A DNA stretch of 64,000 nt, from the NCBI GenBank assembly GCA_963770895.1, contig CAVYRF010000002.1:192001-256000 (forward strand), read 5' to 3'. The notes below the pieces were generated by a model, which saw only the letters and a list, made by a program, of their open reading frames with translations, searched no databases and had not been told where the DNA came from. Position numbers and translations under genes: made by a program. Positions 546 to 43,920 of the stretch are shown in pieces; position 1 is the first letter of the stretch, and every line of letters begins with the position of its first letter. The stretch comes from an uncultured Acidobacteriota bacterium (GTDB taxonomy: Bacteria > Acidobacteriota > Thermoanaerobaculia > Multivoradales > UBA5704).

Positions 546-1360
546 AAGGCGCGCAGGACCTCGTAGAGCTCTGGGTGCCTGCGCTGGAGGTTGGCCCCCT
601 GTTCGAAAAACGCCTCGGTCACCACGGCGAAGAACTCGGCAGGGTTGGTGGCGCCGTAGGCATCGATGTCGCTCGGCCTCTGCTCGGCGACGCGGTCGAG
701 CAGATCCTGGTACTCGGCGCCCAGGGCGTGCGCCCAGGCCGAGTAGAGGGCGCGCGTGCCGAGGTCGGGCGCACCGTTGAGGGCACCGTCCTCGGCGTCG
801 AGCTGGTGGGCGAACTCGTGCAGCACCACGTTGTGACCGTCGTGCATGTTCGACGCGCCGCTCTTGACGGCGTCCCACGCCAGCACCACGGCGCCGCGGA
901 CCCACGATTCGCCGAGCCGCCCTTGATCGCCCACCACCTCCAGGCCACCGAGATTCTGGCGCACATCCTTGACGATGTAGGCGCTCGGATAGACCAGGAT
1001 CGAAGAGAGGTCGGGGTAGTAGTCGGTCTCCCGATGCAGCAGCAGCACGCAGGCTTGCGCGGCGATGGTGAGCTTGATTTCCTGGGTGACATGCAGGCCG
1101 CCGCAGCCCTCGAACCGTTTCTCGGCCAGGAAAACCTGAATGTGTCCTTCGAGCTCGCGCCGGTCCTCCTCGGACAGGGTGGCGGCGTAAGCAACGTTGC
1201 GCAACACCATGGCGCGCTGGGCGGCCGACAGCGGCTGTGCGCGGAGCTTGGCCCGGCGCTTTTTCTTGAAGAGAAAGTCGAGCAAGCCGTCGATTTTATC
1301 AGGAACCACCGGCCGGCGCGCCCTGAAACCGGAGACCGCGATCGTTGGTAGTAGAGGCAT
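521..1360 (-). CDS. Zinc-dependent peptidase, M90/MtfA family
   Basis: FLAEKRFEGCGGL, IAAQAC, ILVYPSAY, GESW, NVVLHEFAHQLD (HExxH) and YGATNPAEFFAV..EAFFE. Start is uncertain (ATG 1360 or TTG about 1285). Confidence 0.9.
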   Translation of the reverse strand: MPLLPTIAVSGFRARRPVVPDKIDGLLDFLFKKKRRAKLRAQPLSAAQRAMVLRNVAYAATLSEEDRRELEGHIQVFLAEKRFEGCGGLHVTQEIKLTIAAQACVLLLHRETDYYPDLSSILVYPSAYIVKDVRQNLGGLEVVGDQGRLGESWVRGAVVLAWDAVKSGASNMHDGHNVVLHEFAHQLDAEDGALNGAPDLGTRALYSAWAHALGAEYQDLLDRVAEQRPSDIDAYGATNPAEFFAVVTEAFFEQGANLQRRHPELYEVLRAFYRQDPAG

Positions 1361-1410
1361 CGGGCACCGCTGCCCGGATGGCGACGACGTGGCGGCGCGG
1401 AGGTGAGGCG

Positions 1411-3879: not shown

Positions 3880-3964
3880 ACCGCCGCCGCCTTGGCGCGG
3901 CCCCGGAGCGGGTCTCCGTCGACCATGCGGTCGAGTGCTAAGATGTTGAAAATTGATTCCTCCG

Positions 3965-6900
3965 ATGCTCTCCACCTTGCGGCGGTCGCCTCCGCGGCCT
4001 GGGCGCGGCACACGACGGATCTGCGGCGCTTTCCTGGCGGCGCTGGCGTGCTGTGGGTCTGCCTGCGGCGCCGGCGCCGGGCGCGGCGGGGCCGCGAGCA
4101 GGGTGCACGTAGTGGTGGCGGGAGAGAATTTCGAGCGCTCGCCGCGTGCCGGCCAAAGCGACGAATACGAGCTGCGCCTCCGGGCGGGCCAGTTCGTCCA
4201 CGTCGTCGTCGACCAGCTCGGTATCGACGTCCTGTTGCGGCTCTATGCGCCGGCGGGCAGGCAGCTGACCGAGGTGGACAGCCCCACCGGCACCACCGGC
4301 CCGGAGCGGGTCGCCGTGGTGGCTCCGGTGGCGGGCCGCTACCGCTTGCAGGTCTCGGCGACGTCCGCCAAGCCGGGCGGGCGCTACGCGTTCCACGTCG
4401 TCGCATGGCGGGACGCGACGCCCGCGGATCGCCTGGAGGTGGCGGCGGAAAGGGCCTTCGATCGCGGTGAAGGGCTGCGCCGGGCGACGCTTCTGCGCGA
4501 CGCCCTGCCGCGCTACCAGCAGGCCCTGGTGGCCTGGACGTCGCTGGGCAACGTGGCCGGGGAGGCGCTGGCGCTGAATGGGCTGGGCGAGATGCACCAA
4601 CGGATGGGCGAGATGCACCACCGGCTGGATGAGCTCGATGCCGCGGTGGCGCTCTACCGCCAGGCGCTCAGGACGTTGGCGCCCACCGGCGACATCAGGT
4701 CCCAGGCGGGGATCTGCAACCGGATGGGCAGGGCGCTGCTGGACCTGTTTCGCTTCGACGAGGCGCTCGCCGCACACCGCCGTGCCCTGGCGCTCTTCCG
4801 CCAGCTCACCGATCGCAAGGGCATCGCCACGGCGCTCAACAACGAGGGCAACGTCTACCTCTGGCTGGGCAAAAACCAATCGGCCCTGGACGCCTTCGAC
4901 GCGGCGCTGCCGCTGTGGGACCGCCGCACCGAGACGCACGAGCGGATGCTCACCCTGATCAACATGGGCAACGTGCTGACCGCCGAAGAGCAGCTCGACG
5001 AAGCGGCGGCGGTCTATCGGGAGGCGATCGCAGAAGCGATCGCAGAAGCCGGCCGCCTGCACGATCCAGCCGCCCTGGCAAAGGTCCTTTCGCGCGAGGG
5101 CTTTCGCCTATACGCCGCTGGGCAGCCCGCCCTCGCCATCGACCGCCTGCGGCAGGCGATCGACCTGCATCGCCAGCTGCACGACCCGGTGGGCTACGTC
5201 GACGATCTGCTCAATCTGGGCGTCGCCTACCTCAAGCAAGGAGACCTCCGCCACGCCGGCGATGCCCTGTCGCAGGCCCGCCAGCTCTACCGGCAGGCGG
5301 GCAATCGCCACGGCGAGGCGATGGCGCTGCTGGACCTGGGACGCCTGGCGTACACCGCCGGCGATTTCCCGCGCGCCCTCGCACTGTACACCGCGGCCAG
5401 GCAGCTCTTCGTCGCCGTGCGCGGGCGCCAGGGCGAGGTGTCGGCGATCTATGGCTGCGCGTCCACGCTCCTCCGGCTCGGGCGGCCGGCGGAGGCCCGC
5501 GACCAGATCGCCCTGGCGGTCGACGGGCTGGAAAACCTGCGCGGCGAAACGGCGAGCCGGTCGCTGCGTCAGTCGTACTTCGCCTCGCGGCAGAACTATT
5601 GGGACCTGTACGTTCAGACACTGATGCTCCTGGACGCCAGGCATCCCGGCGGCGGCTACGCGGCGCAGGCTTTCGCAATCAGCGAGCGCCGCCGGTCGCG
5701 CAGCCTGCTGGACCTTCTGGGCCAGGCCGCGGCGGCTGCCCCCGCCGGCGGCGAGCGCGGCGCAGCCGCCGAGGAGAACGAGCTGCAGCAGCAATTGGAC
5801 GCCATCGACCGTCACCGGCTGCTGTTGATGGACCGCCAGGGGAGCGCCGCCGCGGTTGCCGCTCTCGATCGATTGCAGCAGCAAAAGGTCATCCAGCTCG
5901 ACCGGGCGCGGGCGCGCCAGGCAAGCCAGGACGATCTGACGGCGGCGCCGTCCCCTGCCGCGGCGCTTTCGCTGACCGCGGTACAGGCGCTGCTCGGCCG
6001 CGACGACATGCTGCTCGAATACGCCCTGGGCGAGCCCACCAGCTACCTCTGGGCGGTGACGCACAGCTCCTGCAAGAGTTTCCGTCTGACCGGCCGCGCT
6101 GCGATCGAAGCCGCCGCCCGCGCCGCGACCGACCTCCTGCGGCGCACCAGTGTCAAGGCCCAGACGGCGCAGGAGCAAGCTGCTCGCCAGCTGAGCTCCC
6201 TGGTGTTGGCGCCGGCCGCCGCCGAGCTGGGGCAGGCGCGGCGCCTCCTGATCGTTGCCGACGGCGATCTGCTGCTGGTGCCGTTTGCGGCCCTGCCGGA
6301 CCCCGCGGCGCCGCCATCCGAGACGTCGCCGCTCGTGGTGCGGCACGAGATCGTCACCCCGCCCTCGGCCACGGTCCTGGCCGCGCTGCGCCGCCGGTCG
6401 CGCCAACAACCCACGCCGCCAGCCGGCGTCGCGGTCTTTGCCGATCCCGTGTTTCGGTCCGACGACCCCCGCCTGGCGCCGGCGGCCCTGCCGGCGGGCG
6501 CGGCGCCGGGGCCATCCCTGCCGCCGGCGGAACCGCCGGGTCTCGGCCTGCTGCTGCGCGACTTCCACCTCGCCGGTCTCGCGCGCCTGCCCGCCACCGC
6601 CGGCGAGGCAGCGGCGATCGCCCAGGTCGCGCCATCGGGCACGGTCGTCGCGATGGGTTTCGCGGCAAGCCGCGAGCGCGTCCTGGACGGGTCGCTGCGC
6701 CGGTTTCGCTACCTCCACTTCGCCACCCACAGCCTGGTGGACGCGCTGCACCCGGACCTTTCGGGAATCGTGCTCTCGCTGCGCGACCAGCGCGGCCAGC
6801 CACAGGACGGGATCCTGCGTCTCTACGAGATCTACGACCTCGATCTGCCGGCGCGGCTGGTGGTGCTGAGCGGCTGCGAGACCGGTCTCGGGCAGCCGGT

Positions 6901-7168
6901 CGCCGGCGAAGGCCTGGTCGGCCTCAGCTGGGGCTTCCTGCACGCAGGGGCGCAGGGCGTGGTGGTGAGCCTCTGGAACGTCCAGGACGACAGCACGGCC
7001 GAGCTCATGCGCCGCTTCTACACCGCGCTGTTCGCCGGGCACGCCTCCGCGCCGGCGGCGCTGCGCCAGGCGCAGCTGTCGATGCTCGCGAGCACCGGCT
7101 GGCGCGCCCCCTATCACTGGGCCGGGTTTGTCTTCACCGGCGATTGGGAAGCCGCCGGGAAGCCTTGA
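3965..7168 (+). CDS. PPC-like domain + TPR repeats + CHAT (caspase-like, clan CD) protease; catalytic His and Cys present
   Basis: N-terminal hydrophobic stretch; LRAGQFVHVVVDQLGIDV..L domain; TPR repeats; CHAT motifs RLLIVADG.L..VPFAAL, YLHFATHS, VVLSGCETG, VVVSLWNV.D, PYHWAGF. Confidence 0.88.
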   Translation: MLSTLRRSPPRPGRGTRRICGAFLAALACCGSACGAGAGRGGAASRVHVVVAGENFERSPRAGQSDEYELRLRAGQFVHVVVDQLGIDVLLRLYAPAGRQLTEVDSPTGTTGPERVAVVAPVAGRYRLQVSATSAKPGGRYAFHVVAWRDATPADRLEVAAERAFDRGEGLRRATLLRDALPRYQQALVAWTSLGNVAGEALALNGLGEMHQRMGEMHHRLDELDAAVALYRQALRTLAPTGDIRSQAGICNRMGRALLDLFRFDEALAAHRRALALFRQLTDRKGIATALNNEGNVYLWLGKNQSALDAFDAALPLWDRRTETHERMLTLINMGNVLTAEEQLDEAAAVYREAIAEAIAEAGRLHDPAALAKVLSREGFRLYAAGQPALAIDRLRQAIDLHRQLHDPVGYVDDLLNLGVAYLKQGDLRHAGDALSQARQLYRQAGNRHGEAMALLDLGRLAYTAGDFPRALALYTAARQLFVAVRGRQGEVSAIYGCASTLLRLGRPAEARDQIALAVDGLENLRGETASRSLRQSYFASRQNYWDLYVQTLMLLDARHPGGGYAAQAFAISERRRSRSLLDLLGQAAAAAPAGGERGAAAEENELQQQLDAIDRHRLLLMDRQGSAAAVAALDRLQQQKVIQLDRARARQASQDDLTAAPSPAAALSLTAVQALLGRDDMLLEYALGEPTSYLWAVTHSSCKSFRLTGRAAIEAAARAATDLLRRTSVKAQTAQEQAARQLSSLVLAPAAAELGQARRLLIVADGDLLLVPFAALPDPAAPPSETSPLVVRHEIVTPPSATVLAALRRRSRQQPTPPAGVAVFADPVFRSDDPRLAPAALPAGAAPGPSLPPAEPPGLGLLLRDFHLAGLARLPATAGEAAAIAQVAPSGTVVAMGFAASRERVLDGSLRRFRYLHFATHSLVDALHPDLSGIVLSLRDQRGQPQDGILRLYEIYDLDLPARLVVLSGCETGLGQPVAGEGLVGLSWGFLHAGAQGVVVSLWNVQDDSTAELMRRFYTALFAGHASAPAALRQAQLSMLASTGWRAPYHWAGFVFTGDWEAAGKP

Positions 7169-7257
7169 CCAAGCCCGGCGAGCTGGTCGCGCCGCCATTC
7201 TCGCGTACTACAGGGGGGCATGAAATCAATGTAGTTTGACGAGGAGGAGACTTCTTC

Positions 7258-9525
7258 ATGATCGAACCTTCGCGCCAGCTGGTGCTCGGCGTCCCGGTCG
7301 AAGGCCGTCTGGAAGGCAAGAACGCGGACGTCTTCGATGTCCACCTCGAAACGGGTCAGTTCGTCCACCTGGTCGCCGAGCAGCTCGGCCTGGACGTCAA
7401 GCTGCGCCTGTTCAACCCCGGCCATCAGCTGTTGACGGAGGTGGATAGTCCGATCGGCAGCCGAGGCGCCGAAGAAGTGACGCTGGTCGCGGCGGCGAGC
7501 GGGCTCTACCGGGTGGAGGTGAGCGCGGGCGACGCCAAGCCGGGCGGCGGCACGTATCGCCTGCGGATCGAATCCCTGCGCGCCGCCACCGAGGCCGACC
7601 GCAGGACGGCGACGGCGGAGCACATGTTCAACTCCGCCGAGGTGCTGCGCCGCGGGGGCCAGACGCAGCAGGCCCTGCTGGACTACCGCCTCGCCTGCCG
7701 TGAATGGGAGGCATTGGGCGATCGGCCGCGCCAGGCGACCTGCCACTATCGGATGGGCTGGATGGAGCACGCCCTGGAGAAGCCACCCCATCTCGAGGAG
7801 GCCGACAGACACTTCCAGGCGGCCCTCGATCTGCTGGGCGAAACCGATCCGTCGCTCCAGGCGACGATCTGGAACCGCCGCGGCAGGGTCCTGCTGGCGC
7901 TCGGCCGGGTGGATCCGGCCCGCGCCGCGCACGAGCGTGCGCTCGCGCTGTTCCGCAACCTCGGGGACCGCGACGGCGAGGCCGAGGCGCTGCAAAATCT
8001 CGGCATGGTCGAAAGCCGCGGCGACGCTGCCCTTGCCAAGCAGCACTTCGTGAGCGCGGTCGCGTTGTGGCAGCAGCTGGGCAACATCAAGGAAGAGAAA
8101 TACACCCGGAGCAGCCTGGCGAGACTCCCGCGGCACACCGGCATGCCGGCGGCGCCGTCGTCCGCGGCGCTGCCGGGCAGCGGTGCACCGCTGGCGGTCC
8201 AGGACGTCGCGGAGCGCCACGACGCGGCCTTCGCTCCCATCCTGGACGCCGGCACCCTGGTGCTGCGCTACGAGCTGGGCGACGAGCACGGCACCCTGTG
8301 GACTGCGACAGCCGCCGGTCCGCTGGGCCAACACCCGCTGCCCGGGCGCGCCGCGGTCGAGGCGGTGGCCAGCCGGCTGTTCGCGGCGGTGCAACAGGAC
8401 GGCGCGCAGGCCCAAGCGGAATGGCAAGCCGCCGCCACCGATCTCAGCCGTATGTTGCTCGCACCGGCGGCGGCCCACTTGATGGAGCGCCGTCTGGTGG
8501 TGGTAGTGGACGGTTGGCTTGAGCGCGTGCCGTTCGCCCTGCTGCCGGAACCGCGGCCGGCGGCCGGCGAGCCGGCCCAGGAGGCCGCGCAGCCGCTGCT
8601 CGAGCGCCACGAGATCGTCTACCTGGCGGCGGCGACCGCGGCGGCCGTGCTCGACGGGCCATCGCGACGCCAGGGCGGGTTGAGGGAGCCTGGGCCGGCG
8701 GTGGTGGGCGCTCCGGTGCTGCGCGCCGACGATCCCAGACTGGCCGGCACCGCTGCCGGCGGCACCGCGGGCCGCCCAGAGCTGCCGGCGGACCTTGTCG
8801 CGGCGCTTGCCGGCGTCGGCCTGGAGGAGCTGCCGGCGCTGCCATTCAGCCTGGCCGAGGCGGAGGCGATCGTCGAGCTCATGCCGCAGCTCGCACCGGT
8901 CCACGCCCTGGGCCTGGACGCCAACCTGGACCTCCTGCGGGGCACCGCGCTGCGCGGTTTCCGCATCTTGCACCTGGCGGTCCTGGCCGTCCTGGCGAAG
9001 GCAGGGTCGGGCCTGGTCGTGTCCTGCTTCGATGCCAGCGGCAGGCCACGCCCCGGCTTTCTGCGCCTCGCGGACCTGGCCCGCCTGAACCTTCCGGCGG
9101 ATCTGCTGGTGGTGACCGGATCGCGGCTGTCCGGGGAAGCCGGCGTGGGCGGCCTCGAGCTGGTGGGCGCGGCAATGCAGGCCGGCGCGGCCAAGGTCGT
9201 GACGTCCCTGTGGAGCGTCGAGGACCAGAGCGCCGTCGAGCTGATGAAGCACTTCTACAAGGGGTTGCGGCAAGGCGCCCTGGAACCGGCGGCGCTGCGG
9301 CAGGCACAGCTTGCCGTGGCCGCGGATGCGCGGTGGCACGCCCCCCGCCATTGGGCCGGATTCCTGTTTTCGGGCGACTGGCGCCAGGGCCGCCGGGGGC
9401 ACCGGCCTGGCGGCGGCACCATCGAAGCCGACGACAAGGGCGGCACCGGCAGCTCGGGGCCGCAGGGCAACGACATGCCTCCTCCCGACGAGGACGTCAG
9501 CTATGACGAAGGGAGCGGGCAATGA
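7258..9525 (+). CDS. Paralogous PPC-TPR-CHAT protein with a degenerate active site (probable pseudoprotease)
   Basis: GAGGAGGAG RBS upstream. Same architecture as the upstream gene with fewer TPRs. HFATH becomes HLAVL and LSGCETG becomes VTGSRLSG, while VVTSLWSVED and PRHWAGF are kept. Confidence 0.82.
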   Translation: MIEPSRQLVLGVPVEGRLEGKNADVFDVHLETGQFVHLVAEQLGLDVKLRLFNPGHQLLTEVDSPIGSRGAEEVTLVAAASGLYRVEVSAGDAKPGGGTYRLRIESLRAATEADRRTATAEHMFNSAEVLRRGGQTQQALLDYRLACREWEALGDRPRQATCHYRMGWMEHALEKPPHLEEADRHFQAALDLLGETDPSLQATIWNRRGRVLLALGRVDPARAAHERALALFRNLGDRDGEAEALQNLGMVESRGDAALAKQHFVSAVALWQQLGNIKEEKYTRSSLARLPRHTGMPAAPSSAALPGSGAPLAVQDVAERHDAAFAPILDAGTLVLRYELGDEHGTLWTATAAGPLGQHPLPGRAAVEAVASRLFAAVQQDGAQAQAEWQAAATDLSRMLLAPAAAHLMERRLVVVVDGWLERVPFALLPEPRPAAGEPAQEAAQPLLERHEIVYLAAATAAAVLDGPSRRQGGLREPGPAVVGAPVLRADDPRLAGTAAGGTAGRPELPADLVAALAGVGLEELPALPFSLAEAEAIVELMPQLAPVHALGLDANLDLLRGTALRGFRILHLAVLAVLAKAGSGLVVSCFDASGRPRPGFLRLADLARLNLPADLLVVTGSRLSGEAGVGGLELVGAAMQAGAAKVVTSLWSVEDQSAVELMKHFYKGLRQGALEPAALRQAQLAVAADARWHAPRHWAGFLFSGDWRQGRRGHRPGGGTIEADDKGGTGSSGPQGNDMPPPDEDVSYDEGSGQ

Positions 9526-10955
9526 GCGATGCGGTGTATTTCAACGGTCTGGACGGGGACTCGGGCAGCTATCTGCTGGATCCCAGGACCGATGCGGAGA
9601 TCGCAACCGCTCTGCTCGCGCAGCGGCGGGAGCGGCGGCTCCCGGAGGAGTCGGAAAGCTTTCGCGGCCCGATCCTGGGTGTGGACGCGCAGAACCTCGA
9701 GCAGGCAGGTTGGGGGTTGGTGATGCCCGAGGATGTCGGCGACGGGCCCGCCGCGGAGCATTGGCGTGCCGTGCGCCGCGCGCTCGAGCCGCTTTGCGAG
9801 TTGCGCGCCCGCGAGGCCGGCCCGCTGTACCGCGACAGCCTGACCCAGCCGCGGCCCCTGTTCTATCGCCCGAAGGAGAGCGCGGAAGATTTCCTCTACC
9901 GCTATTGCGCAAGGCCCGAAGATCCGGTGGACCCTGCGGAGGTGCCCTACTATCTGCTCCTGGTCGGCGACCCGGAGACGATCCCCTTCGAGTTCCAGTT
10001 CGATCTCGACGTTCAATACGCGGTGGGGAGGATCTGCTTCGACCGCCCGCAAGACTACGCGGCCTACGCGACCGCAGTGGTGAACGCCGCCGGAGGCGAG
10101 GTGCAGCGGCAGCGCGAGGTGGCGATCTTCGCCGTCGAAAGGGACCCCACCACCTGCCTCACCGCGAACAGTCTGGCGCGGCCCCTGGCGGAAAACCTTG
10201 CCGCCGTGCGAGACGGCTGGCGGCTCCATACGCGCTTCGGTCCGGATGCCGACCGGGCCCAGCTCGCCGCCCTGATGCAGGCGGCGGAGCGGCGCCCCGC
10301 CCTGCTGTTCACCGCCAGCCACGGCGTGGGGTTTCGCGGCCAGTCCGAGCCACGGCAGAAGCTGCGAGAGGAGATGCAGGGGGCGCTGGTCTGCCAGGAC
10401 TGGGAGGGGCCCGGAACGCCGCTCGTGCGGCAGCATTACCTTGGGGCGCCGGATCTCGAAGACGCTCACGTGGACGGACTGATCGCGATGTTCTTCGCCT
10501 GCTACAGCGCTGGCACGCCGCAGTTCGACAGCTTCGAGACCGACGACCAGCGTCAGCCGCTGCAGATCGCCGCCCGGCCATTTGTCTCGCGGCTGGTGCA
10601 GCGCATGCTCAGCCATCCGAACGGCGCGGCGCTGGCGGTCATCGGGCACGTCGATCGCGCCTGGACCCATTCGTTCGGCGACGGCGCCTTCGAACGGTCC
10701 AGGATCGCGGTGTTCAACGACCTGGTCCAGGGCCTCCTGCAGGGCCTCCGGGTGGGATATGCAATGGAGCCGTTCGCATTCCGCTACGCGGCGCTGGGCA
10801 ACAAGATGTCGAACATCTGGGAGTCGCTGGGGACCTACGGTTCCCCCTTCACCCTGGACGACATCGGCAGCGCCTGGCGAAACCGCAACGATGCGCGCAA
10901 CTTCGTGCTCTTCGGCGACCCCGCCGTGCGGCTCGCCGTCGGCGAGTGGGGGTGA
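9522..10955 (+). CDS. Peptidase C25 (gingipain-like, clan CD) domain protein, no signal peptide
   Basis: ATGA overlap with the previous gene. PYYLLLVGDPETIPF, YAVGRI, LLFTASHG (His), FFACYSAG (Cys), AVIGHVDRAW, FVLFGDPAVRL. Confidence 0.75.
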   Translation: MSDAVYFNGLDGDSGSYLLDPRTDAEIATALLAQRRERRLPEESESFRGPILGVDAQNLEQAGWGLVMPEDVGDGPAAEHWRAVRRALEPLCELRAREAGPLYRDSLTQPRPLFYRPKESAEDFLYRYCARPEDPVDPAEVPYYLLLVGDPETIPFEFQFDLDVQYAVGRICFDRPQDYAAYATAVVNAAGGEVQRQREVAIFAVERDPTTCLTANSLARPLAENLAAVRDGWRLHTRFGPDADRAQLAALMQAAERRPALLFTASHGVGFRGQSEPRQKLREEMQGALVCQDWEGPGTPLVRQHYLGAPDLEDAHVDGLIAMFFACYSAGTPQFDSFETDDQRQPLQIAARPFVSRLVQRMLSHPNGAALAVIGHVDRAWTHSFGDGAFERSRIAVFNDLVQGLLQGLRVGYAMEPFAFRYAALGNKMSNIWESLGTYGSPFTLDDIGSAWRNRNDARNFVLFGDPAVRLAVGEWG

Positions 10956-11101
10956 ACCGCCGGCTGGGCGCGCCGCTCGGCACGCCGGCGGCCCGCGTGT
11001 CCCGGCGACGTGGGCGGGGGGCACTGGAAAAGGAAAGGATCTTCGGTTGGGTGCTCGGCTCCGATCTCGGGGATACGAGCAAGGTCGAGGAGGAGGAAGC
11101 C

Positions 11102-11296
11102 ATGAAGAAGCATGCGCAGAGCTCCAAGGGACGCATCCTGGGACGGCGGCTGGCGCGCGAGCTGCCGAATCAGGAGCTCGGCCGCGCCGCCGGCAGCAGC
11201 GCAATCGGAGTGTGGACGTACACGCTGCTCTATCCGTCCGATCCCGGCGGCCCGAGCTGGGACAGCAGCGGCGGCGGTGGGACGATCCTGGTCTGA
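11102..11296 (+). CDS. Graspetide (ATP-grasp RiPP) precursor peptide, 64 aa
   Basis: GAGGAGGAGG RBS. MKKHAQSSKGRILGRRLARELPNQELGRAAGS-SAIGVWTYTLLYPSDPGGPSWDSSGGGGTILV, with an ELxxxELxxxxG leader and a TxxYPSD core. Lies directly upstream of an ATP-grasp gene. Confidence 0.78.
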   Translation: MKKHAQSSKGRILGRRLARELPNQELGRAAGSSAIGVWTYTLLYPSDPGGPSWDSSGGGGTILV

Positions 11297-11401
11297 GGCG
11301 CCCACACCCCGACACCATCGGCCCCGGCCGGCAGCCGCCGGCCGGGTGCTCTGCATGATGCGCCCTGGCCCCTTCCCGTCGAGCGCTTTCCCCCTCCCGC
11401 C

Positions 11402-12550
11402 ATGCCCAGATACCTGATCGCGACCGAGCCGCGCGACCTGCACGCGGTCGAGGTGGCGATGGCGCTCGAGGAGCGCGGCGCCCAGGTTGCGCTCTGGATG
11501 GGGGCCGACTTCCCCACGCGGCTCGCGGGGTCGATCGAGGTGCGGGACGGGCGGACGTCGTGGGAGCTGCGCGCGGCGGGCCAGGCTGCGGTCACGCCGC
11601 CGTTCGACGGCGTGTGGATGCGGCGGCCGACGGCGCCGCGGCTGCCGGAGGGCCTGCACCCGGCGGACGTGGCGGTGGCCGAGCGCGAGACGCGCGAGCA
11701 CGTTGCCGGGCTCTACTGGCTGGCGGCGCCGGAGGCGTTCTGGGTCAACCCTCTCGCCAGCCGCGGGCGCGCCGAAGCCAAGGCGGTGCAGCTCGCCCTG
11801 GCGGCGCGCCTCGGCTTCCGCGTGCCGCCGACGCTGCTGTCGAACGACCCGGCGCGCATCCGCGCCTTCCTGGCCGAGCACCGCGGGAGCGCGATCTACA
11901 AGGCCTACTACCCCGCCGGCTGGGAGGGCGCCGCGACCACGGCAGTCCTGGGCACCGCGGAGGTCGCGTCCGAGGACCTGCCCGACGACGAGATCCTGCG
12001 CGCCACGCCCGGGATCTTCCAGGCGCGCGTCGACAAGGCCTACGAGCTGCGGGTGACGGTCTTCGGCGGCTTCCTTGCCGCGGCACGCCTCGACTCACAG
12101 GCGGTCGAGGAGGCGCGCCTCGACTCGCGCGCCGGCGGCCCGCGGCTGCCGATCCGGCCAGCCGAGCTGCCGCCGGCGCTCGCGCGGCGCTGCTTCGACC
12201 TGCTCGAACAGCTCGGCATCGTTTTCGGCTGCTTCGATTTCGCCGTCACCCCGGCAGGCGAGCCGGTGTTCTTCGAGGTCAATCCGGCCGGGCAGTTCCT
12301 CTGGGTCGAAGAGGCCTGCCCCGACATCCCGCTGCTGGCGCCCTTCGTCGACTTCCTGCTCGCCCGGCGCCGCGACTTCCAGTGGAGCCCCCATCCCGGC
12401 GCCATCCGCCACGCCGACCTGGTCGGCGCCGCGCTCCGCCGCACCCAGGAGCTGGCCGCCCGCCACGTCGAGCCGCCGCCCCCCTTCGTCCACCCCGAGG
12501 CGGACGCCGGAGAGGGCGAGGGAAAGCGTGACGGAGAGGGATTACGGTAA
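11402..12550 (+). CDS. MvdC/MvdD-like ATP-grasp RiPP macrocyclase
   Basis: DLHA..V..AL, VWMRRP..P, FWVNP, K.VQL.LA..LGF.VPPTLLSNDP, PGIFQ..VDKAYELRVTV.G, LGIVFGCFDF.VTP.GE.VFFEVNPAGQFLWVE. Confidence 0.9.
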   Translation: MPRYLIATEPRDLHAVEVAMALEERGAQVALWMGADFPTRLAGSIEVRDGRTSWELRAAGQAAVTPPFDGVWMRRPTAPRLPEGLHPADVAVAERETREHVAGLYWLAAPEAFWVNPLASRGRAEAKAVQLALAARLGFRVPPTLLSNDPARIRAFLAEHRGSAIYKAYYPAGWEGAATTAVLGTAEVASEDLPDDEILRATPGIFQARVDKAYELRVTVFGGFLAAARLDSQAVEEARLDSRAGGPRLPIRPAELPPALARRCFDLLEQLGIVFGCFDFAVTPAGEPVFFEVNPAGQFLWVEEACPDIPLLAPFVDFLLARRRDFQWSPHPGAIRHADLVGAALRRTQELAARHVEPPPPFVHPEADAGEGEGKRDGEGLR

Positions 12551-12560
12551 GGTACAGGCC

Positions 12561-12803
12561 ATGAGCGACCCCCACACACCGCCGCCAACGCCGCCGCCCG
12601 CCGGCGACGGAACCCACGCCCAGCCGCCGGCGCCCGAGTCCGTCTCTCACCTCCAGGACCGCATGCGCAGCATCGCCGCCCGCCTGCGCGACGCCGCCCA
12701 GGACCTGGGCGCCGAAGTCATGGTCGACATCCCCAGCCGCCTGGGCGATCACTCGGGCCTGCTGATCGCCCTCGCCAACGAGCTCGAGCAGCTGGTGAAG
12801 TAA
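12561..12803 (+). CDS. Small hypothetical protein (80 aa; Pro-rich N-terminus, helical C-terminus)
   Basis: ATG 10 nt after the ATP-grasp stop, with AAGG upstream. Third codon positions look coding-like. No family recognised. Confidence 0.55.
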   Translation: MSDPHTPPPTPPPAGDGTHAQPPAPESVSHLQDRMRSIAARLRDAAQDLGAEVMVDIPSRLGDHSGLLIALANELEQLVK

Positions 12804-12931
12804 CCCGCCGCGCCGCCTTGAGCGCAGGCTCCGCCACACCGGCTGCGGTCGGCGAGCGCCGGCCGATGGCTTGACCGCGCAAGGCAGTTGCACAGCACCG
12901 GGCTGATTGGAACGGGCCGTCGAGGGTCGGC

Positions 12932-13531
12932 ATGCATTTCGTGGCCAGCGCCGCTGGGCACGCGGAGATGATCTGGGCCACCTTCGAGCACGTCGCCAAC
13001 GCGCCCGACGTCACCTATTCGTACAACTCGACCAGCGGCGCCAAGACCGTCACCCAGAACACCGCGGGCACCTGGCTGTTTGCTGCCAGCGGCTCCACCG
13101 GCCCCTGGAACCAGGTGCACATGAGGGCCAACGGCAGCACTATCAACGTCATGGAGAACACGCCGAGCGACACGCTGCGCATGAATCCCTGGGGATCCTC
13201 GCCCAACCAACCGCCCAATCCCCTGGCGACCGCCGCGGCATCCAACACCGACATCATTTCGATCAACCAGAGCGTGCTCACCCAGCTCACGGTGGGCGAC
13301 GTGCGGGCCAACTACGTGATGCGCGGCTCGACCTGGACCGAATTCGGTCCCCCCGACCTCCCCTTCCCCAGCGGCATCGAAGTCGGCACCAGCCAGCTGG
13401 CCAACACCACCATGGAAACCTATCAACAGGGCACGGGCACCTTCAGCAAGAGCGTCAACTGCTTCTTCTGCCACAACACCAACACCACCGCCGTCAGCCA
13501 CGTCTTCTCCGACATCAAGCCGCTGTTCTGA
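12932..13531 (+). pseudogene. 5'-truncated remnant of a secreted cytochrome c-like protein (C-terminal CxxCH)
   Basis: GMHFV..., IWATFEHV.NAP, QLANTTMETY and NCFFCH. It begins mid-domain with no signal peptide or RBS. Confidence 0.55.
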
Positions 13532-13606
13532 TTCCGAGCTGGAACCCGACGCCTTCGCCGTCTTTCCCATCCCCTCCCCACCGCCGGCCGCCGGCGCCGC
13601 CGCGAC

Positions 13607-16129
13607 CTACCGGCGGTCCGGCGCCGGCGGCGGGAAGGACGGTGGGGCGTCGCCGGCGGCGCTGCCCCAGGCGACGTCGGGAGCATCCGCCAGGTCGAAG
13701 TCCAGGCGGCCGCCGCGCGCGATGAACGACTCCGGCAGCCACGGACGGCTGGAGGCGGTGCCGTCCACCCGCAGCCGGCGCACGTACGGCGCGCCGGCGC
13801 CTGTACCGGCACGCGGCGCGTCCAGCGTCAGCACCGGGCCGCTGGCGCGGCGCACGACGACGTGCGGGAACAGCGGGCTCGCGAGCAGCAGCTCGGCCCG
13901 GCCGGGGATGCCGGGGTACATTCCCATGGCGGACCAGACGTACCACGACGACATCTCGCCCAGGTCGTCGTTGCCGGGGATGCCGTAGGGAAGGTCGCTC
14001 CACAGCTGGTCGAGCACCTGGCGCACCGTCTCCTGCGTGCGGTAGGGCTTGCCCGAGTACAGGTAGATCCAGGGGGCGCCGATCGACGGCTCGTTGTCCA
14101 TTTCGGCGTGCGTGCCGCCCAGGCCGGTGAGCGCCCATGCGCCGCCATCGCCGCTGTTGCCGCCATTGCCGGCATTGACGCCATTGCCGGCACCGGCGCC
14201 ATCGGCGCGATGGAAGAAGGCGTCCAACCGCCGGTTCGCCTGCGCGTTGCCGCCCATGGCGTCGATCAGGCCGCGCAGATCGAACGGCACCATCCAGGTG
14301 TACTGCGCGCTGCTGCCCTCCGCGAAGCCGTCGTCGGCCGCCGGATCGAAAGCGGGCCAGGTGCCATCGGGCAGGCGATCCTGGATGTAACCGCCGGCCG
14401 GAGTGGCGCCGGGGTTCCACACGTTGCGCCAGTAGCCGGAGCGCGCGGCGAAGCGCGCGGCCACCGCCCGGTCGCCGACGCGCAGGGCGAGCTGCGCCAG
14501 GCTGAAGTCGGCGATGGCGTCTTCCAGCGTCTCGCCGGCGCCGCCCCAGGCGTTGGCGCCGGCCGGGATGTAGTGCAGGGCCAGCCAGCGGTCGAGCGCC
14601 GGGCGCTGGCCAGGGCATTCCACCGGGCAGCCGGCGGCAGCACCGTCGTGCGCCGTGGGCACCAGCGCGGCGCGCGCCAGCGAGGCGAATGCCGCCGCGA
14701 CGTCGAAATGCGTGCCGCCGAAGGCGACGATGCCGGCGAGGGCGGCGGGCGACGGGTCGCCCTCCATGACGTGGGTGGCGCCCGAGTTGTGGGTCCAGCG
14801 ATCCCACTCGCCGCCGTTCTGGTCGGCCTGATTGAGCAGCGACTGCGCGATGTCGGAGGCGATCTCCGGCTCGAGCAGGGTCACCAGCTGGAGCTGCGAG
14901 CGGTAGACGTCCCAGCCGGAAAAATTGGCGTATTGGGCGCGCTGCCGGCCGCCGACCGTGTGCACCTGGCCGTCGAAGCCGCGGTATTGGCCGCCGGCGT
15001 CGCTCGCCAGGTTGGGATGCAGCAGCGCATGGTAGAGCGCCGTGTAGAAGGTCACCCGCTGCCGGCGGGTGCCGCCGCCGACCTGGATGCGGCGCAGCGC
15101 GCGGTCCCACTGCTCGCGCCCGCGGCCCGCCACGTCCTCGAAACGTGTACCGGCCGGGTTCTCGCTCGCCAGATTGGCCGCGGCATTGGCCGTGCTGACG
15201 TAGGAGATGCCGACCCGCACGCCGACGGTGGCGCCGGCTCCGTCCCGGAAGCTCACCCAGGCGCCCGACCCCTTGCCCACGACGGGGTAGCCGTCCCCGC
15301 CGTACCCGGTGCCGCCGCGCGCCGCCGTGGCCCCCGGCTCCAGGTGTTGGTCTTCCCACGTGCCAAAGCCGGCGAAGGCGCGGTCGAAAACCGCCACAAA
15401 GTACAGCGTGTAGTAGCTGCGGCGGTCCGCCGCGTCCAGGTAACCGCAGAAGTTGCCGCTGGTCACCGCGCCGCTGACCGTGCGCGCCGCCGCGTCGATC
15501 GCGACCTGTGCGTCGCTGCTGCCCACTTCCGAGTCCGACACACGGATCAACAGGTTGGCCGCGCCGCCGGCGGGAAACGAAAAGCGCGCCGCGCCGGTGC
15601 GCGCCGTCGCCGCCAGCTGAACGCCGATGCCGGACGCCAGGACCACCCGGTAGAGGTCCGGCGCCGCCGTTTCGTTGACATGCGAAAACCCGTCGGCGTA
15701 CACCGCGTCGGTGCCGTCGGCCGCCGGGGAGGAGCGGATCTCCCCGCCGTACGGCATGAACGGCACGTCGCCCGAGGCGCCGCGGCAGCCCGTGCCCGAA
15801 AGGTGCGTCAGGCTGAACCCGCGCACCCGCCGCGCATCGTAGGCATAGCCGCCGGGCGCCGCGACCCGCGTGGCATTGCCGCGCGTCGTCTCGGGGCTCC
15901 ACTGCACCATGCCGAACGGCACCACCGCACCGGGAAACGTGTTGCCGCCGTTGGCGCTGCCGATCCGCGGATCGACGTCCGCAACCGGATCCTCCGCGGC
16001 CGGAGCCTCCGCGGCCGGATCGCCCCCGCCACCCCGATTCGCCGAGCAGCCGCCCAGCGCCAGCGCGACCAACCACCAGACCAGCAACCCCCGTCGGATC
16101 GACTGCGGCAGAATCGCCCCCTCTTGCAT
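13607..16129 (-). CDS. GH92 family alpha-1,2-mannosidase (lipoprotein-like signal)
   Basis: LALGGC lipobox; GNTFPGAVVPFGMVQWSPET, GFSLTHLSGTGC, FYTALYH, FSGWDVYR, FAEGSSAQYTW, NEPS, PGNDDLGEMSSWYVWSAMG. Confidence 0.93.
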   Translation of the reverse strand: MQEGAILPQSIRRGLLVWWLVALALGGCSANRGGGGDPAAEAPAAEDPVADVDPRIGSANGGNTFPGAVVPFGMVQWSPETTRGNATRVAAPGGYAYDARRVRGFSLTHLSGTGCRGASGDVPFMPYGGEIRSSPAADGTDAVYADGFSHVNETAAPDLYRVVLASGIGVQLAATARTGAARFSFPAGGAANLLIRVSDSEVGSSDAQVAIDAAARTVSGAVTSGNFCGYLDAADRRSYYTLYFVAVFDRAFAGFGTWEDQHLEPGATAARGGTGYGGDGYPVVGKGSGAWVSFRDGAGATVGVRVGISYVSTANAAANLASENPAGTRFEDVAGRGREQWDRALRRIQVGGGTRRQRVTFYTALYHALLHPNLASDAGGQYRGFDGQVHTVGGRQRAQYANFSGWDVYRSQLQLVTLLEPEIASDIAQSLLNQADQNGGEWDRWTHNSGATHVMEGDPSPAALAGIVAFGGTHFDVAAAFASLARAALVPTAHDGAAAGCPVECPGQRPALDRWLALHYIPAGANAWGGAGETLEDAIADFSLAQLALRVGDRAVAARFAARSGYWRNVWNPGATPAGGYIQDRLPDGTWPAFDPAADDGFAEGSSAQYTWMVPFDLRGLIDAMGGNAQANRRLDAFFHRADGAGAGNGVNAGNGGNSGDGGAWALTGLGGTHAEMDNEPSIGAPWIYLYSGKPYRTQETVRQVLDQLWSDLPYGIPGNDDLGEMSSWYVWSAMGMYPGIPGRAELLLASPLFPHVVVRRASGPVLTLDAPRAGTGAGAPYVRRLRVDGTASSRPWLPESFIARGGRLDFDLADAPDVAWGSAAGDAPPSFPPPAPDRR

Positions 16130-27445: not shown

Positions 27446-27709
27446 CTTTCCCCCTGACAGACGGGCGCAAGGCAGGGAGGCTGCCATCGAGAGCCACCAC
27501 CGGTGAAGCAACTACCGTGCGGCCCCTGATCCCGTGAGTCCCTGCACTCTGATGCCGTCCGCCGAGCATGTCAAGCGTGCCGGGTGCCCTCCATCCTGGC
27601 GACGCACCGTGCTGTAACGCCGGCACACCGCGCCGCGCCCATGGGAAGACGGTTTAACATCACCAGATCGAAACTGCATTCGACCGTGAGGTCAAAGGAG
27701 GCTCTCGCA

Positions 27710-43734: not shown

Positions 43735-43920
43735 GGCTTCGGGCCGCGTGGCAGCCGCTATCCTCCGATGTCCTCCGGCAATCCTGGGACTGGATTTGAT
43801 CACCTGAAAACTGCCGCAGGCTATCATGATACATCGCTCTGTGAAGGCCGCAGGACATTGAATTCAGGGGTCTTTGTGGGATAGTATTTGCACTCTCAAT
43901 CGCCAAGGAGAACCCTGCTC

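What the first reader, a model, noticed from the sequence alone, without database searches (positions are those of the whole stretch)
11102..12550. Graspetide with a Lys-less microviridin-like core (TLLYPSD) and a non-microviridin leader
Seen: the core contains T-L-L-Y-P-S-D, which is the microviridin TxKYPSD motif with K replaced by L. An extra Thr (TYT) precedes it and PGGPSWDSS follows. The leader lacks PFFARFL and instead reads RILGRRLARELxxxELxxxxG, like a double-glycine leader. Only one ATP-grasp gene is present. Established: microviridins need Lys for the lactam and use MvdD for Thr/Ser-Asp/Glu esters; the YPSD ring contributes to serine-protease inhibition. Inference: an ester-only graspetide (Thr-Asp, perhaps a second ester to the WD Asp) of a new or poorly described subgroup. 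The precursor is not a standalone entry in the ORF track.
Basis: partly seen in the sequence, partly recalled or inferred. Interest (0 to 1): 0.75.

Follow-up and report, generated by a model that had tools for sequence, protein, structure and literature searches.

The report
Two-gene ester-crosslinked peptide (graspetide) cluster
A small gene and the ATP-grasp enzyme gene next to it should make a ring-closed peptide that looks like a protease inhibitor; close relatives are already listed in a published catalogue, but no member has been tested.

Summary
Bases 11102..11296 encode a 64-residue peptide with the leader RILGRRLARELPNQEL and the core TYTLLYPSDPGGPSWD. An MvdD-like ATP-grasp ligase gene follows at 11402..12550.

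The peptide is a real, conserved gene. It has 36 homologues, and the leader segment plus T39, T41, Y44, P45 and D47 never vary.

The core has no Lys and only two acidic residues, D47 and D54. It can therefore carry at most two esters and no lactam.

The family is not new to the literature. The orthologous locus L001 (enzyme 76% identical, same core) is listed as graspetide group 8 in the RODEO dataset of Carter et al. 2026. I found no characterised group 8 member.

The leader is of the double-glycine type. It also follows the PFFARFL pattern (hydrophobic, hydrophobic, small, Arg, x, Leu). A complex model places it on the enzyme site that aligns with the leader-binding residues of MdnC.

The Ser of YPSD is dispensable: 10 of 37 relatives have Ala or Pro there.

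My reading is a bicyclic lactone, T41–D47 inside T39–D54, acting as a protease inhibitor with Leu at P1. The ring pattern and the activity are inferred. It is a new member of a known but uncharacterised kind.

The parts
11087..11099 (+). Purine-rich ribosome-binding stretch GAGGAGGAGGAAG, ending 2 nt before the precursor ATG
   Evidence: Read from the sequence. L001 has AGAAGGAGGAAAG at the same place.
11102..11296 (+). Graspetide precursor gene, 64 aa plus stop
   Evidence: Translation. 36 homologues. Alignment A1. GC3 is 0.85. Purifying selection against L001.
11132..11179 (+). Leader recognition segment R11-L26 (RILGRRLARELPNQEL)
   Evidence: R11-G14, R15, R16, A18-E20 and L26 are invariant in 37 sequences. 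In the complex model, residues 10-23 and 26 touch the enzyme.
11192..11197 (+). Putative double-glycine-type cleavage site G31-S32 (inferred)
   Evidence: G31 is nearly invariant. Relatives read GG, GS, GA, GQ or GT here. With G31-S32 as positions -2/-1, L26, E25 and L21 fall at -7, -8 and -12; the consensus for these positions is recalled, not tested.
11216..11263 (+). Core ring region T39-D54 (TYTLLYPSDPGGPSWD). Donors are T39 and T41; the only acceptors are D47 and D54
   Evidence: T39, T41, Y44, P45 and D47 are invariant and D54 nearly so. 27 of 28 YPSD-type relatives have Asp at +7.
11264..11293 (+). C-terminal tail SSGGGGTILV: a Gly-rich stretch plus a short hydrophobic end, of unknown role
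   Evidence: The pattern is conserved across the family in alignment A1.
11402..12550 (+). Graspetide synthetase (MvdD-like ATP-grasp ligase), 382 aa
   Evidence: PF21068, E 2.7e-8. TIGR04187 213 bits, MvdC 164 bits, MvdD 157 bits, all below their cut-offs. PDB matches MdnB 3.6e-39 and MdnC 2.4e-33. 236 homologues.

Best explanation
This is a minimal two-gene graspetide cluster of the group 8 kind, from a Thermoanaerobaculia-like (Acidobacteriota) genome.

Proposed steps:
1. The 64-aa precursor is translated.
2. Its invariant leader segment (R11-L21) docks on the central-domain hairpin of the single ATP-grasp ligase (residues about 166-204). This site aligns with the place where MdnC binds the PFFARFL helix.
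3. The enzyme uses ATP to activate the side-chain carboxylates of the only two acidic core residues, D47 and D54. It closes them onto Thr hydroxyls, giving two omega-ester macrolactones (-36 Da) and no lactam.
4. The most likely pattern is T41-D47, the same i to i+6 T-x-x-Y-P-x-D ring as the large lactone of microviridin and marinostatin. It would be nested inside T39-D54.
5. The leader is then cut at a double-glycine-type site (after G31-S32) by a peptidase that is not encoded next to the pair.
6. The product is probably a substrate-mimic serine-protease inhibitor with Leu42 at P1.

Shown here: the genes, their conservation and adjacency, the family placement, and the limits set by composition. 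Modelled: leader docking. Inferred: the ring pattern, the cleavage site and the activity.
For: Enzyme:
- MvdD pre-ATP-grasp domain.
- Full-length matches to ribosomal-peptide maturase models and to the MdnB, AMdnB, MdnC and CdnC structures.
- K167, K212, E215, R217, D279, E292 and N294 are invariant in 37 relatives.

Precursor:
- 36 homologues with an invariant leader segment and invariant T39, T41, Y44, P45 and D47; D54 is nearly invariant.
- 14 synonymous-only codon differences against 18 amino-acid changes versus L001, with no amino-acid change in R11-N23 or W38-P51.

Adjacency:
- In L001 the precursor lies 18 nt upstream of the ligase.
- P0135 and P0010 carry consecutive locus tags.
- 5 of 36 precursor hits share a contig length with a listed ligase hit.

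Family placement:
- L001's precursor, at contig coordinates 10743-10548, is row 4655 (HEX3530015.1) of the Carter et al. 2026 dataset, labelled group 8.
- All 4 rows with LLYPSD in the held part of that file are labelled group 8.

Composition and wider family:
- There is no Lys after K9, and the only acidic residues after E25 are D47 and D54.
- 71 of 97 short relatives carry the pattern [TSC]-x-[TSN]-x-x-x-P-x-[DE] that I searched for. Of these, 69 have a further acidic residue downstream (first one at +2 in 20, +5 in 17, +7 in 12), and 0 have Lys at the microviridin Lys position.

Leader docking:
- Complex model score 0.74, best of 3 controls 0.19. That mark was reached by 116 of 157 solved complexes and 2 of 215 mismatched pairs. 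Runs agree in at least 52% of contacts; partner pLDDT is at least 46.
- The confident interface is precursor residues 10-23 and 26 against enzyme residues 166-204.
- Enzyme V182, E191, D192 and D195 align with MdnC V182, E191, D192 and N195. The review PMC7823629 names these as the leader contacts (passages).

P1 logic:
- The same review places microviridin residue 5, next to the ring Thr, in the S1 pocket. Leu there favours elastase and subtilisin.
Against: - No chemistry was measured.
- The core is not placed with confidence in the complex model (partner pLDDT 46-48), so the ring pattern rests on conservation and analogy only.
- One relative has Asn at the T41 position (P0192) and one clade has Cys at the T39 position (P0162). 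Neither Thr is therefore strictly universal.
- The complex model may score high because like complexes are already solved; the review describes the MdnC-leader contacts from the crystal structure 5IG9.
- No C39 peptidase or peptidase-containing transporter was found among the 32 ORF translations scanned in the 64 kb. The paper reports that group 8 clusters often have an NHLM-type transporter.
- The ligase scores below the curated cut-offs of all NCBIfam maturase models.
- The group 8 label is by proxy, through a 76%-identical orthologue. The window's own peptide is not among the rows held.
Confidence: 0.7

Rival explanations
1. Same cluster and same two esters, but crossed instead of nested: T39-D47 and T41-D54. 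This would give an interlocked topology rather than ring-in-ring.
For: Both Thr and both Asp are conserved, and conservation alone cannot tell the pairings apart. P0192 has Asn at the T41 position yet keeps T39 and both Asp residues. This shows that T39 can serve as the only Thr donor.
Against: The T41-D47 spacing and the Y-P at -3/-2 are exactly those of the TxKxPSD ring of microviridins (review passages). The symmetric T-x-T...D-x-D form, in which the first downstream acidic residue is at +2 (20 of 71 relatives), fits a hairpin stem with nested links, as described for fuscimiditide (passages).
Confidence: 0.2
2. Only one ester (T41-D47) is made. D54 and T39 are conserved for folding, target binding or enzyme recognition, not for cross-linking.
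For: The distance from D47 to the next acidic residue varies from +1 to +7 (mostly +2, +3, +5 or +7), which is unusual for a fixed ring. 2 of 71 relatives have no downstream acidic residue.
Against: 69 of 71 keep a downstream acidic residue. 27 of 28 YPSD-type peptides keep Asp exactly at +7 after an invariant-looking P-x-W. One of the 2 exceptions (P0137) has a divergent tail.
Confidence: 0.12
3. It is a true microviridin/marinostatin (group 1) cluster that has lost MdnB and the Lys.
For: The T-x-x-Y-P-S-D core is present. The closest solved structures are MdnB and MdnC. The review says marinostatin lacks the amide bond and that absence of MdnB is normal in such clusters.
Against: The ligase scores 164 and 157 bits against MvdC and MvdD, whose cut-offs are 425 and 475. 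It scores higher (213 bits) against TIGR04187. There is no PFFARFL; the review says marinostatin keeps that motif. The orthologue is labelled group 8, while true group 1 precursors from Thermoanaerobaculia in the same dataset keep PFFARFL and TxKYPSD. Ser is replaced by Ala or Pro in 10 of 37 relatives.
Confidence: 0.05
4. The peptide works with the neighbouring caspase-fold (clan assignment recalled) peptidase genes: two PPC-TPR-CHAT proteins and a C25 peptidase directly upstream. It would be either their substrate (leader removal) or their dedicated inhibitor.
For: All lie on the same strand. The C25 gene ends 146 nt before the precursor, and the CHAT gene overlaps the C25 gene by 4 nt. The C25 assignment is supported by Pfam (27.3 bits, cut-off 23) and by the Atlas (score 0.99, 25 of 30 hits). 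No other leader peptidase is nearby.
Against: The only informative related locus, L001, has the precursor-ligase pair but none of these genes within 6 kb. Its neighbours are a SpoIIE/7TM sensor phosphatase and a kinase-WD40 protein. The paper's text does not mention CHAT or C25 among proteins co-occurring with group 8.
Confidence: 0.1

Closest known systems
Graspetide group 8 (Lee et al. 2020 numbering as used by Carter et al. 2026, PMC13097080; the Legionella-type precursors are cluster 75 of Makarova et al. 2022)
   Same: The leader follows R-[IV]-L-[GA]-R-x-L-A-x-E-L..E-L..G-G/S, there is a single ATP-grasp ligase, and the precursor lies directly upstream. The orthologous locus L001 and three other LLYPSD peptides are listed as group 8.
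   Different: The Legionella and Myxococcota cores in the same group have no T-x-T-x-x-Y-P-x-D motif. No NHLM-type transporter was found in this window, although the paper says group 8 often has one. I found no characterised member: four phrases for 'group 8 graspetide' matched 0 papers, and 'graspetide' together with 'YPPD' matched none.
Microviridins (graspetide group 1)
   Same: The ring motif is Thr, x, x, Tyr, Pro, Ser, Asp with Thr-to-Asp spacing i to i+6. The enzyme is an MvdD-like ATP-grasp. The leader pattern is hydrophobic, hydrophobic, small, Arg, x, Leu, and the enzyme keeps the acidic pair E191/D192.
   Different: There is no Lys (0 of 71 relatives), so no lactam. There is one ligase instead of MdnB plus MdnC. 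No E/D pair follows PSD. There is no literal PFFARFL. The enzyme scores below the MvdC and MvdD cut-offs.
Marinostatin (bicyclic, ester-only relative of microviridin)
   Same: Ester-only and Lys-less, with the core motif TMRYPSD. Its precursor, as listed in the dataset, also has an E-L...A-G-G stretch and a C-terminal extension.
   Different: Marinostatin keeps PFFAxLL and is listed as group 1. Its second ester uses the Ser of PSD and an Asp two residues later (recalled from Kanaori et al. 2005, not read here). In this peptide +2 is Gly, and the Ser is dispensable in relatives.
Stem-loop graspetides with nested esters (fuscimiditide; also plesiocin, from recall)
   Same: The predicted topology is ring-in-ring, made from two donors followed by two acceptors. 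Fuscimiditide has two nested cross-links made by one tolerant ligase (passages).
   Different: The enzyme branch differs: the PsnB structure matches only at E 2.2e-7. There is no methyltransferase and no aspartimide. The inner ring here is the microviridin-type Y-P loop.

Membership tests
Graspetide cluster (ATP-grasp-modified ribosomal peptide) | Ligase with the MvdD-type pre-ATP-grasp domain and an ATP-grasp core | tested here: met
   PF21068 scores 34.4 bits against a cut-off of 27. Full-length alignments to MdnB, MdnC and CdnC. The E292-x-N294 pair and K167 are invariant in 37 relatives; reading these as ATP- and metal-binding residues is from general knowledge of ATP-grasp enzymes.
Graspetide cluster (ATP-grasp-modified ribosomal peptide) | Small precursor gene next to the ligase, with Ser/Thr/Lys donors ahead of Asp/Glu acceptors | tested here: met
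   The precursor ends 105 nt before the ligase start. T39 and T41 precede D47 and D54. L001 has the same arrangement.
Graspetide cluster (ATP-grasp-modified ribosomal peptide) | Side-chain ester or amide cross-links are actually formed | not testable with these tools
   This needs co-expression and mass spectrometry.
Graspetide group 8 | The ligase falls in the group 8 cluster of the published sequence-similarity network | tested here: inconclusive
   Met only by proxy. The 76%-identical orthologue in L001 is listed as group 8. The window's own protein is not among the rows held, and the file is cut as stored.
Graspetide group 8 | Leader with the conserved R-[IV]-L-x-R-x-L-A-x-E-L helix and a double-glycine-type end | tested here: met
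   Alignment A1. The same pattern appears in the group 8 rows from Legionella, Myxococcota and Thermoanaerobaculia.
Graspetide group 8 | Frequent NHLM-type (peptidase-containing) transporter in the cluster | tested here: not met
   None among the 32 ORF translations scanned in the window, and none in L001. The paper calls this co-occurrence high, not obligatory.
Microviridin (group 1) | TxKxPSD core with the lactam Lys | tested here: not met
   Leu stands at the Lys position. Lys is there in 0 of 71 relatives.
Microviridin (group 1) | PFFARFL leader motif | tested here: not met
   The leader reads RILGRRL. Only the pattern is shared.
Microviridin (group 1) | Two paralogous ligases (MdnC/MvdD for esters, MdnB/MvdC for the amide) | tested here: not met
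   There is one ligase in 64 kb. It scores 157 and 164 bits against cut-offs of 475 and 425.
Marinostatin-type | Second ester from the Ser of PSD to an acidic residue two positions after the Asp (connectivity recalled) | tested here: not met
   Position +2 is Gly49. Ser46 is Ala or Pro in 10 of 37 relatives.

The most novel reading that the evidence does not exclude
This clade pairs a group 8 ligase and a double-glycine leader with the protease-binding lactone loop T-x-x-Y-P-x-D of microviridin and marinostatin. It then locks that loop inside a second, outer Thr39-Asp54 lactone of variable size. No characterised graspetide that I know of or met in my reading has this ring-in-ring topology. The YP loop would then be either an old module shared by groups 1 and 8 or a case of convergence on the same inhibitor geometry. 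The peptide might also act on the three caspase-fold peptidase genes just upstream rather than on serine proteases.
Probability: 0.25. Interest if true: 0.55.

Novelty: new member of a known kind. Interest (0 to 1): 0.35.

Why it matters
Group 8 is a large graspetide group, predicted across several phyla, for which I found no solved product. This two-gene pair has a short core with exactly two possible acceptors, so it would be a simple system for settling the group's ring chemistry.

If the T-x-x-Y-P-x-D ring forms as in microviridin, the canonical inhibitor loop is not tied to the PFFARFL leader or the MdnB/MdnC machinery. That bears on how graspetide cores and leaders are exchanged in evolution, and on engineering protease inhibitors with a single ligase.

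It does not open a new class. The family is already in a public catalogue.

Tried and rejected
1. The 80-aa ORF at 12561..12803 as a partner protein. It starts 10 nt after the ligase stop and has a coding-like GC3 of 0.91. It is a real conserved small protein with 40 homologues. However, it is absent from L001 and L002. Also, 0 of its 40 homologues share a contig length with any of the 120 listed ligase hits, whereas 5 of 36 precursor hits do. Contig length is a crude proxy. Rejected as a conserved partner.

2. C25 and CHAT genes as part of the cluster. They are not found in L001. Kept only as a low-probability rival.

3. Attenuator hairpin between the precursor and the ligase (11324..11345). 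The region folds no better than shuffled sequence (z -0.93; 36 of 200 shuffles fold as well), and L001 has only an 18-nt gap there. No terminator-like or promoter-like site was found in the intergenic regions.

4. Rfam on 9000..14000: no match.

5. PADLOC: only TPR matches on the CHAT proteins, nothing for the ligase or the small ORFs.

6. Makarova et al. 2022 supplements: 0 matches for four motifs of this family. It is not among their listed precursors by literal motif.

7. The genome scan returned only 2 related loci, one of them cut inside the ligase gene. Context statistics were therefore not possible.

8. PDB search with the C25-like protein: no match at E<=1.

9. The core part of the complex model was too uncertain to read a ring pattern from it.
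Full report
**What is there**

Bases 11102..11296 on the + strand encode a 64-residue peptide:

MKKHAQSSKGRILGRRLARELPNQELGRAAGSSAIGVWTYTLLYPSDPGGPSWDSSGGGGTILV

In the mechanical ORF list the peptide is hidden at the end of a spurious 661-aa ORF, 9311..11296, because the frame stays open upstream in this DNA of 71% G+C.

The ATG at 11102 is preceded by GAGGAGGAGGAAG at 11087..11099, and most homologues start at the same MKK. Third-position G+C is 0.85 for the peptide and 0.93 for the next gene, which is coding-like.

That next gene, 11402..12550, encodes a 382-aa ATP-grasp protein.
- It carries the MvdD pre-ATP-grasp domain (PF21068, E 2.7e-8).
- It matches the NCBIfam ribosomal-peptide maturase models over its full length: TIGR04187 213 bits, MvdC 164 bits, MvdD 157 bits. 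All are below the curated cut-offs of 350, 425 and 475.
- The closest solved structures are MdnB (5ig8, 3.6e-39), AMdnB, MdnC (5ig9, 2.4e-33) and CdnC. PsnB is far (2.2e-7).

There is one ligase and one precursor in the window. tblastn with both proteins finds only themselves, and none of the 32 ORF translations scanned with Pfam holds another ATP-grasp domain.

**Is it more than chance?**

Yes. The peptide has 36 homologues of 55-87 residues. In the 37-sequence alignment these positions behave as follows:
- Invariant: K2, R11, I12, L13, G14, R15, R16, A18, R19, E20, L26, T39, T41, Y44, P45, D47.
- At least 90% conserved: L17, G31, G36, P51, D54.

Against the orthologue in locus L001, 63 codons align: 31 identical, 14 synonymous-only and 18 amino-acid-changing. 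None of the amino-acid changes falls in R11-N23 or W38-P51. That is purifying selection on the peptide.

The ligase has 236 homologues at E<=0.001 among the 8000 candidates scored. The named ones are Thermoanaerobaculia or Acidobacteriota MAG proteins.

Evidence that the two genes travel together:
- In L001 (ligase 76% identical) the precursor sits 18 nt upstream of the ligase.
- P0135 and P0010 carry consecutive locus tags, VH988_12180 and VH988_12185.
- 5 of 36 precursor hits share a contig length with a listed ligase hit. In those five pairs, the three ligases at 75-78% identity go with YPSD-type cores and the two at 57-60% go with the YP[AP]D-GPYxD type.
- L002 is cut inside the ligase gene and says nothing about the upstream side.

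**The wider family**

A profile of the 37 peptides was searched against 1.84 billion representatives. It found 64 proteins at E<=0.001.

I pooled these with the first set and dropped two long repeat proteins (P0171, 301 aa; P0211, 591 aa). That left 97 short sequences.

Of the 97, 71 carry [TSC]-x-[TSN]-x-x-x-P-x-[DE], a pattern I imposed for the count. The other 26 share only the leader and have other cores.

Within the 71:
- The position that is Lys in microviridin is L 28, T 15, R 11, S 8, I 5, V 2, A 1, G 1. It is never Lys.
- The residue before the Asp is P 30, S 28, A 12, G 1.
- Tyr is at -3 in 59.

So YPSD is one variant of a broader Y-P-x-D motif, and its Ser is not needed. 10 of the 37 closest relatives have Ala or Pro there.

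69 of the 71 have a further acidic residue downstream. The first one lies at +2 in 20, +3 in 15, +5 in 17 and +7 in 12. Among the 28 YPSD-type peptides, 27 have Asp at +7, the 'WD' Asp.

Three core types emerge:
- T-x-T-L-L-Y-P-S-D-P-G-x-P-x-W-D (this window)
- S-T-W-T-x-x-Y-P-[AP]-D-G-P-Y-x-D
- T-x-T-L-R-Y-P-P-D-x-D

**What the composition forces**

After the leader there is no Lys, and the only acidic residues are D47 and D54. The product can therefore hold at most two side-chain esters and no lactam.

The donors that are conserved and lie ahead of the acceptors are T39 and T41.

**How it most likely works**

*Leader recognition.* The invariant stretch is also the part that the complex model places on the enzyme.
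- Score 0.74, best of 3 controls 0.19. That mark was reached by 116 of 157 solved complexes and 2 of 215 mismatched pairs.
- The runs agree in at least 52% of contacts, and partner pLDDT is at least 46.
- The confident interface is precursor residues 10-23 and 26 against enzyme residues 166-204.
- In the alignment to MdnC, the enzyme's V182, E191, D192 and D195 stand opposite MdnC V182, E191, D192 and N195. The review PMC7823629 (passages) names these as the contacts of the PFFARFL leader, with its Arg bound by the acidic pair.
- Read side by side, P-F-F-A-R-F-L and R-I-L-G-R-R-L share the pattern hydrophobic, hydrophobic, small, Arg, x, Leu.

The leader is therefore better called a divergent counterpart of the microviridin recognition helix than something foreign to it. 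Because a like complex has been solved, the high score shows likeness, not binding.

*Ring closure.* This step is inferred. T41-D47 has the spacing and the Tyr-Pro of the large lactone of microviridins, TxKxPSD. T39 and D54 are left for a second, outer ring.

The symmetric T-x-T...D-x-D relatives fit a hairpin stem with nested links. Fuscimiditide is a stem-loop with two nested esters made by one tolerant ligase (PMC12291112, passages).

The crossed pairing and a single-ring product are not excluded. One relative has Asn for T41 and one clade has Cys for T39.

*Leader removal.* This step is inferred. G31 is nearly invariant, and relatives read GG, GS, GA, GQ or GT there. With G31-S32 as positions -2/-1, L26, E25 and L21 fall at -7, -8 and -12. 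From memory, that is the double-glycine leader pattern.
- Carter et al. state that group 8 clusters often hold an NHLM-type transporter (section read).
- None is in this window or in L001, so the peptidase must be encoded elsewhere or be another enzyme.

*Activity.* This step is inferred. In microviridins the residue after the ring Thr sits in the S1 pocket, and Leu there favours elastase and subtilisin. Here that residue is Leu42.

**Surroundings**

Upstream on the same strand:
- a MacB/FtsX-type permease, 1345..3879
- two PPC-TPR-CHAT proteins, 3953..7168 and 7258..9525
- a C25-family peptidase, 9522..10955 (Pfam 27.3 bits; Atlas score 0.99, 25 of 30 hits)

Downstream:
- an 80-aa ORF, 12561..12803
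- a 199-aa ORF with no family
- a GH92 glycosidase on the other strand

None of the CHAT, C25, 80-aa or 199-aa proteins is encoded in L001. There the pair lies between a SpoIIE/7TM sensor phosphatase and a kinase-WD40 protein.

The 80-aa protein belongs to a family of 40 that shows no link to the ligase by the contig-length proxy: 0 of 40, against 5 of 36 for the precursor.

The conserved unit is therefore the two-gene pair. One informative locus is a thin basis for this. The metagenome contigs were closed, so the neighbourhoods of the other homologues stayed unchecked.

**Comparison with what is known**

*Carter et al. 2026* (PMC13097080). I read the abstract and sections 5 and 7, and searched supplementary file 2, which is cut as stored.
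- The file lists this peptide family as graspetide group 8 from Thermoanaerobaculia. There are 4 rows with LLYPSD, all labelled group 8.
- Row 4655 (HEX3530015.1) has L001's peptide at contig coordinates 10743-10548. These are L001's own coordinates once converted.
- The same group holds the YPPD, YPAD and DPPD types, and also Legionella and Myxococcota peptides with the same leader but unrelated cores.
- In the same file, true group 1 precursors from Thermoanaerobaculia keep PFFARFL and TxKYPSD. Marinostatin's precursor (TMRYPSD, PFFAxLL, then an E-L..A-G-G stretch) is group 1.
- The window's own peptide is not among the rows held.

*Makarova et al. 2022* (PMC8939145). I read the abstract and section 5, looked at passages, and searched the supplements. 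They have no literal match to four motifs of this family. They list the Legionella peptides as cluster 75, assigned to group 8 of Lee et al., with a GG motif.

*Characterised members.* I found no paper that characterises a group 8 member. Four phrases for 'group 8 graspetide' matched 0 papers. 'Graspetide' together with 'YPPD' matched none.

*Not seen.* Lee et al. 2020 and Ramesh et al. 2021 are not in the library, and the SI document of Carter et al. is not held. What they say about group 8 is unseen.

**Verdict**

It is not a microviridin: no Lys, one ligase, scores below the MvdC and MvdD cut-offs, no literal PFFARFL. It is not marinostatin-like in its second ring either.

It belongs, by proxy of a 76%-identical orthologue, to the catalogued but uncharacterised group 8. 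Its interest lies in carrying the microviridin-type T-x-x-Y-P-x-D loop on a group 8 leader and enzyme, with a probable outer second lactone. It is a new member of a known kind, of moderate interest, and it offers a clean and simple experiment.

Noticed in passing
window 45254..63994 (-), runs off the window end: A very large non-ribosomal peptide synthetase reading frame, more than 6200 aa. It has condensation, adenylation, carrier and thioesterase domains plus an embedded sulfotransferase domain (PF13469) and a methyltransferase domain. A class-III aminotransferase gene lies next to it at 43888..45246.
   Followed up: partly
window 12561..12803 (+): An 80-aa ORF starts 10 nt after the ligase stop. 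It has a Pro-rich N-terminus and a conserved C-terminal half, GC3 0.91, and no Pfam, NCBIfam or PADLOC match. It has 40 homologues, one of them labelled Caulobacteraceae. It is not linked to the ligase elsewhere.
   Followed up: yes
window 11264..11293; alignment A1: The precursor family keeps a C-terminal tail after the last Asp: a Gly-rich run, then Pro or Thr, Ile or Val, and one or two more residues (PIYT, PIVT, TILV). Its role is unknown. The marinostatin precursor listed in the dataset also has a C-terminal extension beyond its core motif.
   Followed up: no
P0162 and rows of PMC13097080 supplementary file 2: A sister clade reads C-W-T-L-T-D-P-P-D-G-P-Y-x-D, with Cys where this peptide has T39 and Asp where it has Tyr44 (13 rows with DPPDGPY). 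If position -8 is a donor, that clade would need a thioester or a different pairing.
   Followed up: no
P0171 (301 aa, from the representative search): A multi-core protein with 7 repeats of T-x-x-Y-P-S-D-D-G-G-E-I, including TMRYPSD and one TLLYPSD. Only the core part of the profile matched it (positions 40-54). It looks like a group 1, chryseoviridin-like multi-core precursor, which shows that TLLYPSD also occurs outside group 8.
   Followed up: partly
window 3953..10955 (+): Three consecutive peptidase genes that I take to share the caspase-like fold (clan assignment recalled, not tested). Two are paralogous PPC-TPR-CHAT proteins (38-44% identical in parts), and the third is a C25-family peptidase whose start overlaps the second CHAT gene by 4 nt. 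They follow a MacB/FtsX-type permease gene. Three further MacB-type permease genes lie elsewhere in the window.
   Followed up: partly
window 11324..11345 (+): A 9-bp G+C hairpin, CCGGCCGGC-AGCC-GCCGGCCGG, lies between the precursor and the ligase. The region folds no better than shuffled sequence, and the hairpin is absent from L001.
   Followed up: yes
window 22841..27511 (-): A 1556-aa secreted-type subtilase (S8 with PA and DUF11 domains) lies 10 kb from the cluster. I mention it only because a Leu-P1 inhibitor could target subtilases. No link is shown.
   Followed up: no
window 12932..13531 (+): A 199-aa ORF with no family in Pfam, NCBIfam or PADLOC. Its first-position G+C is unusually low (0.48) while GC3 is 0.91. 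It is Asn-, Thr- and Ser-rich and is absent from L001 and L002.
   Followed up: no
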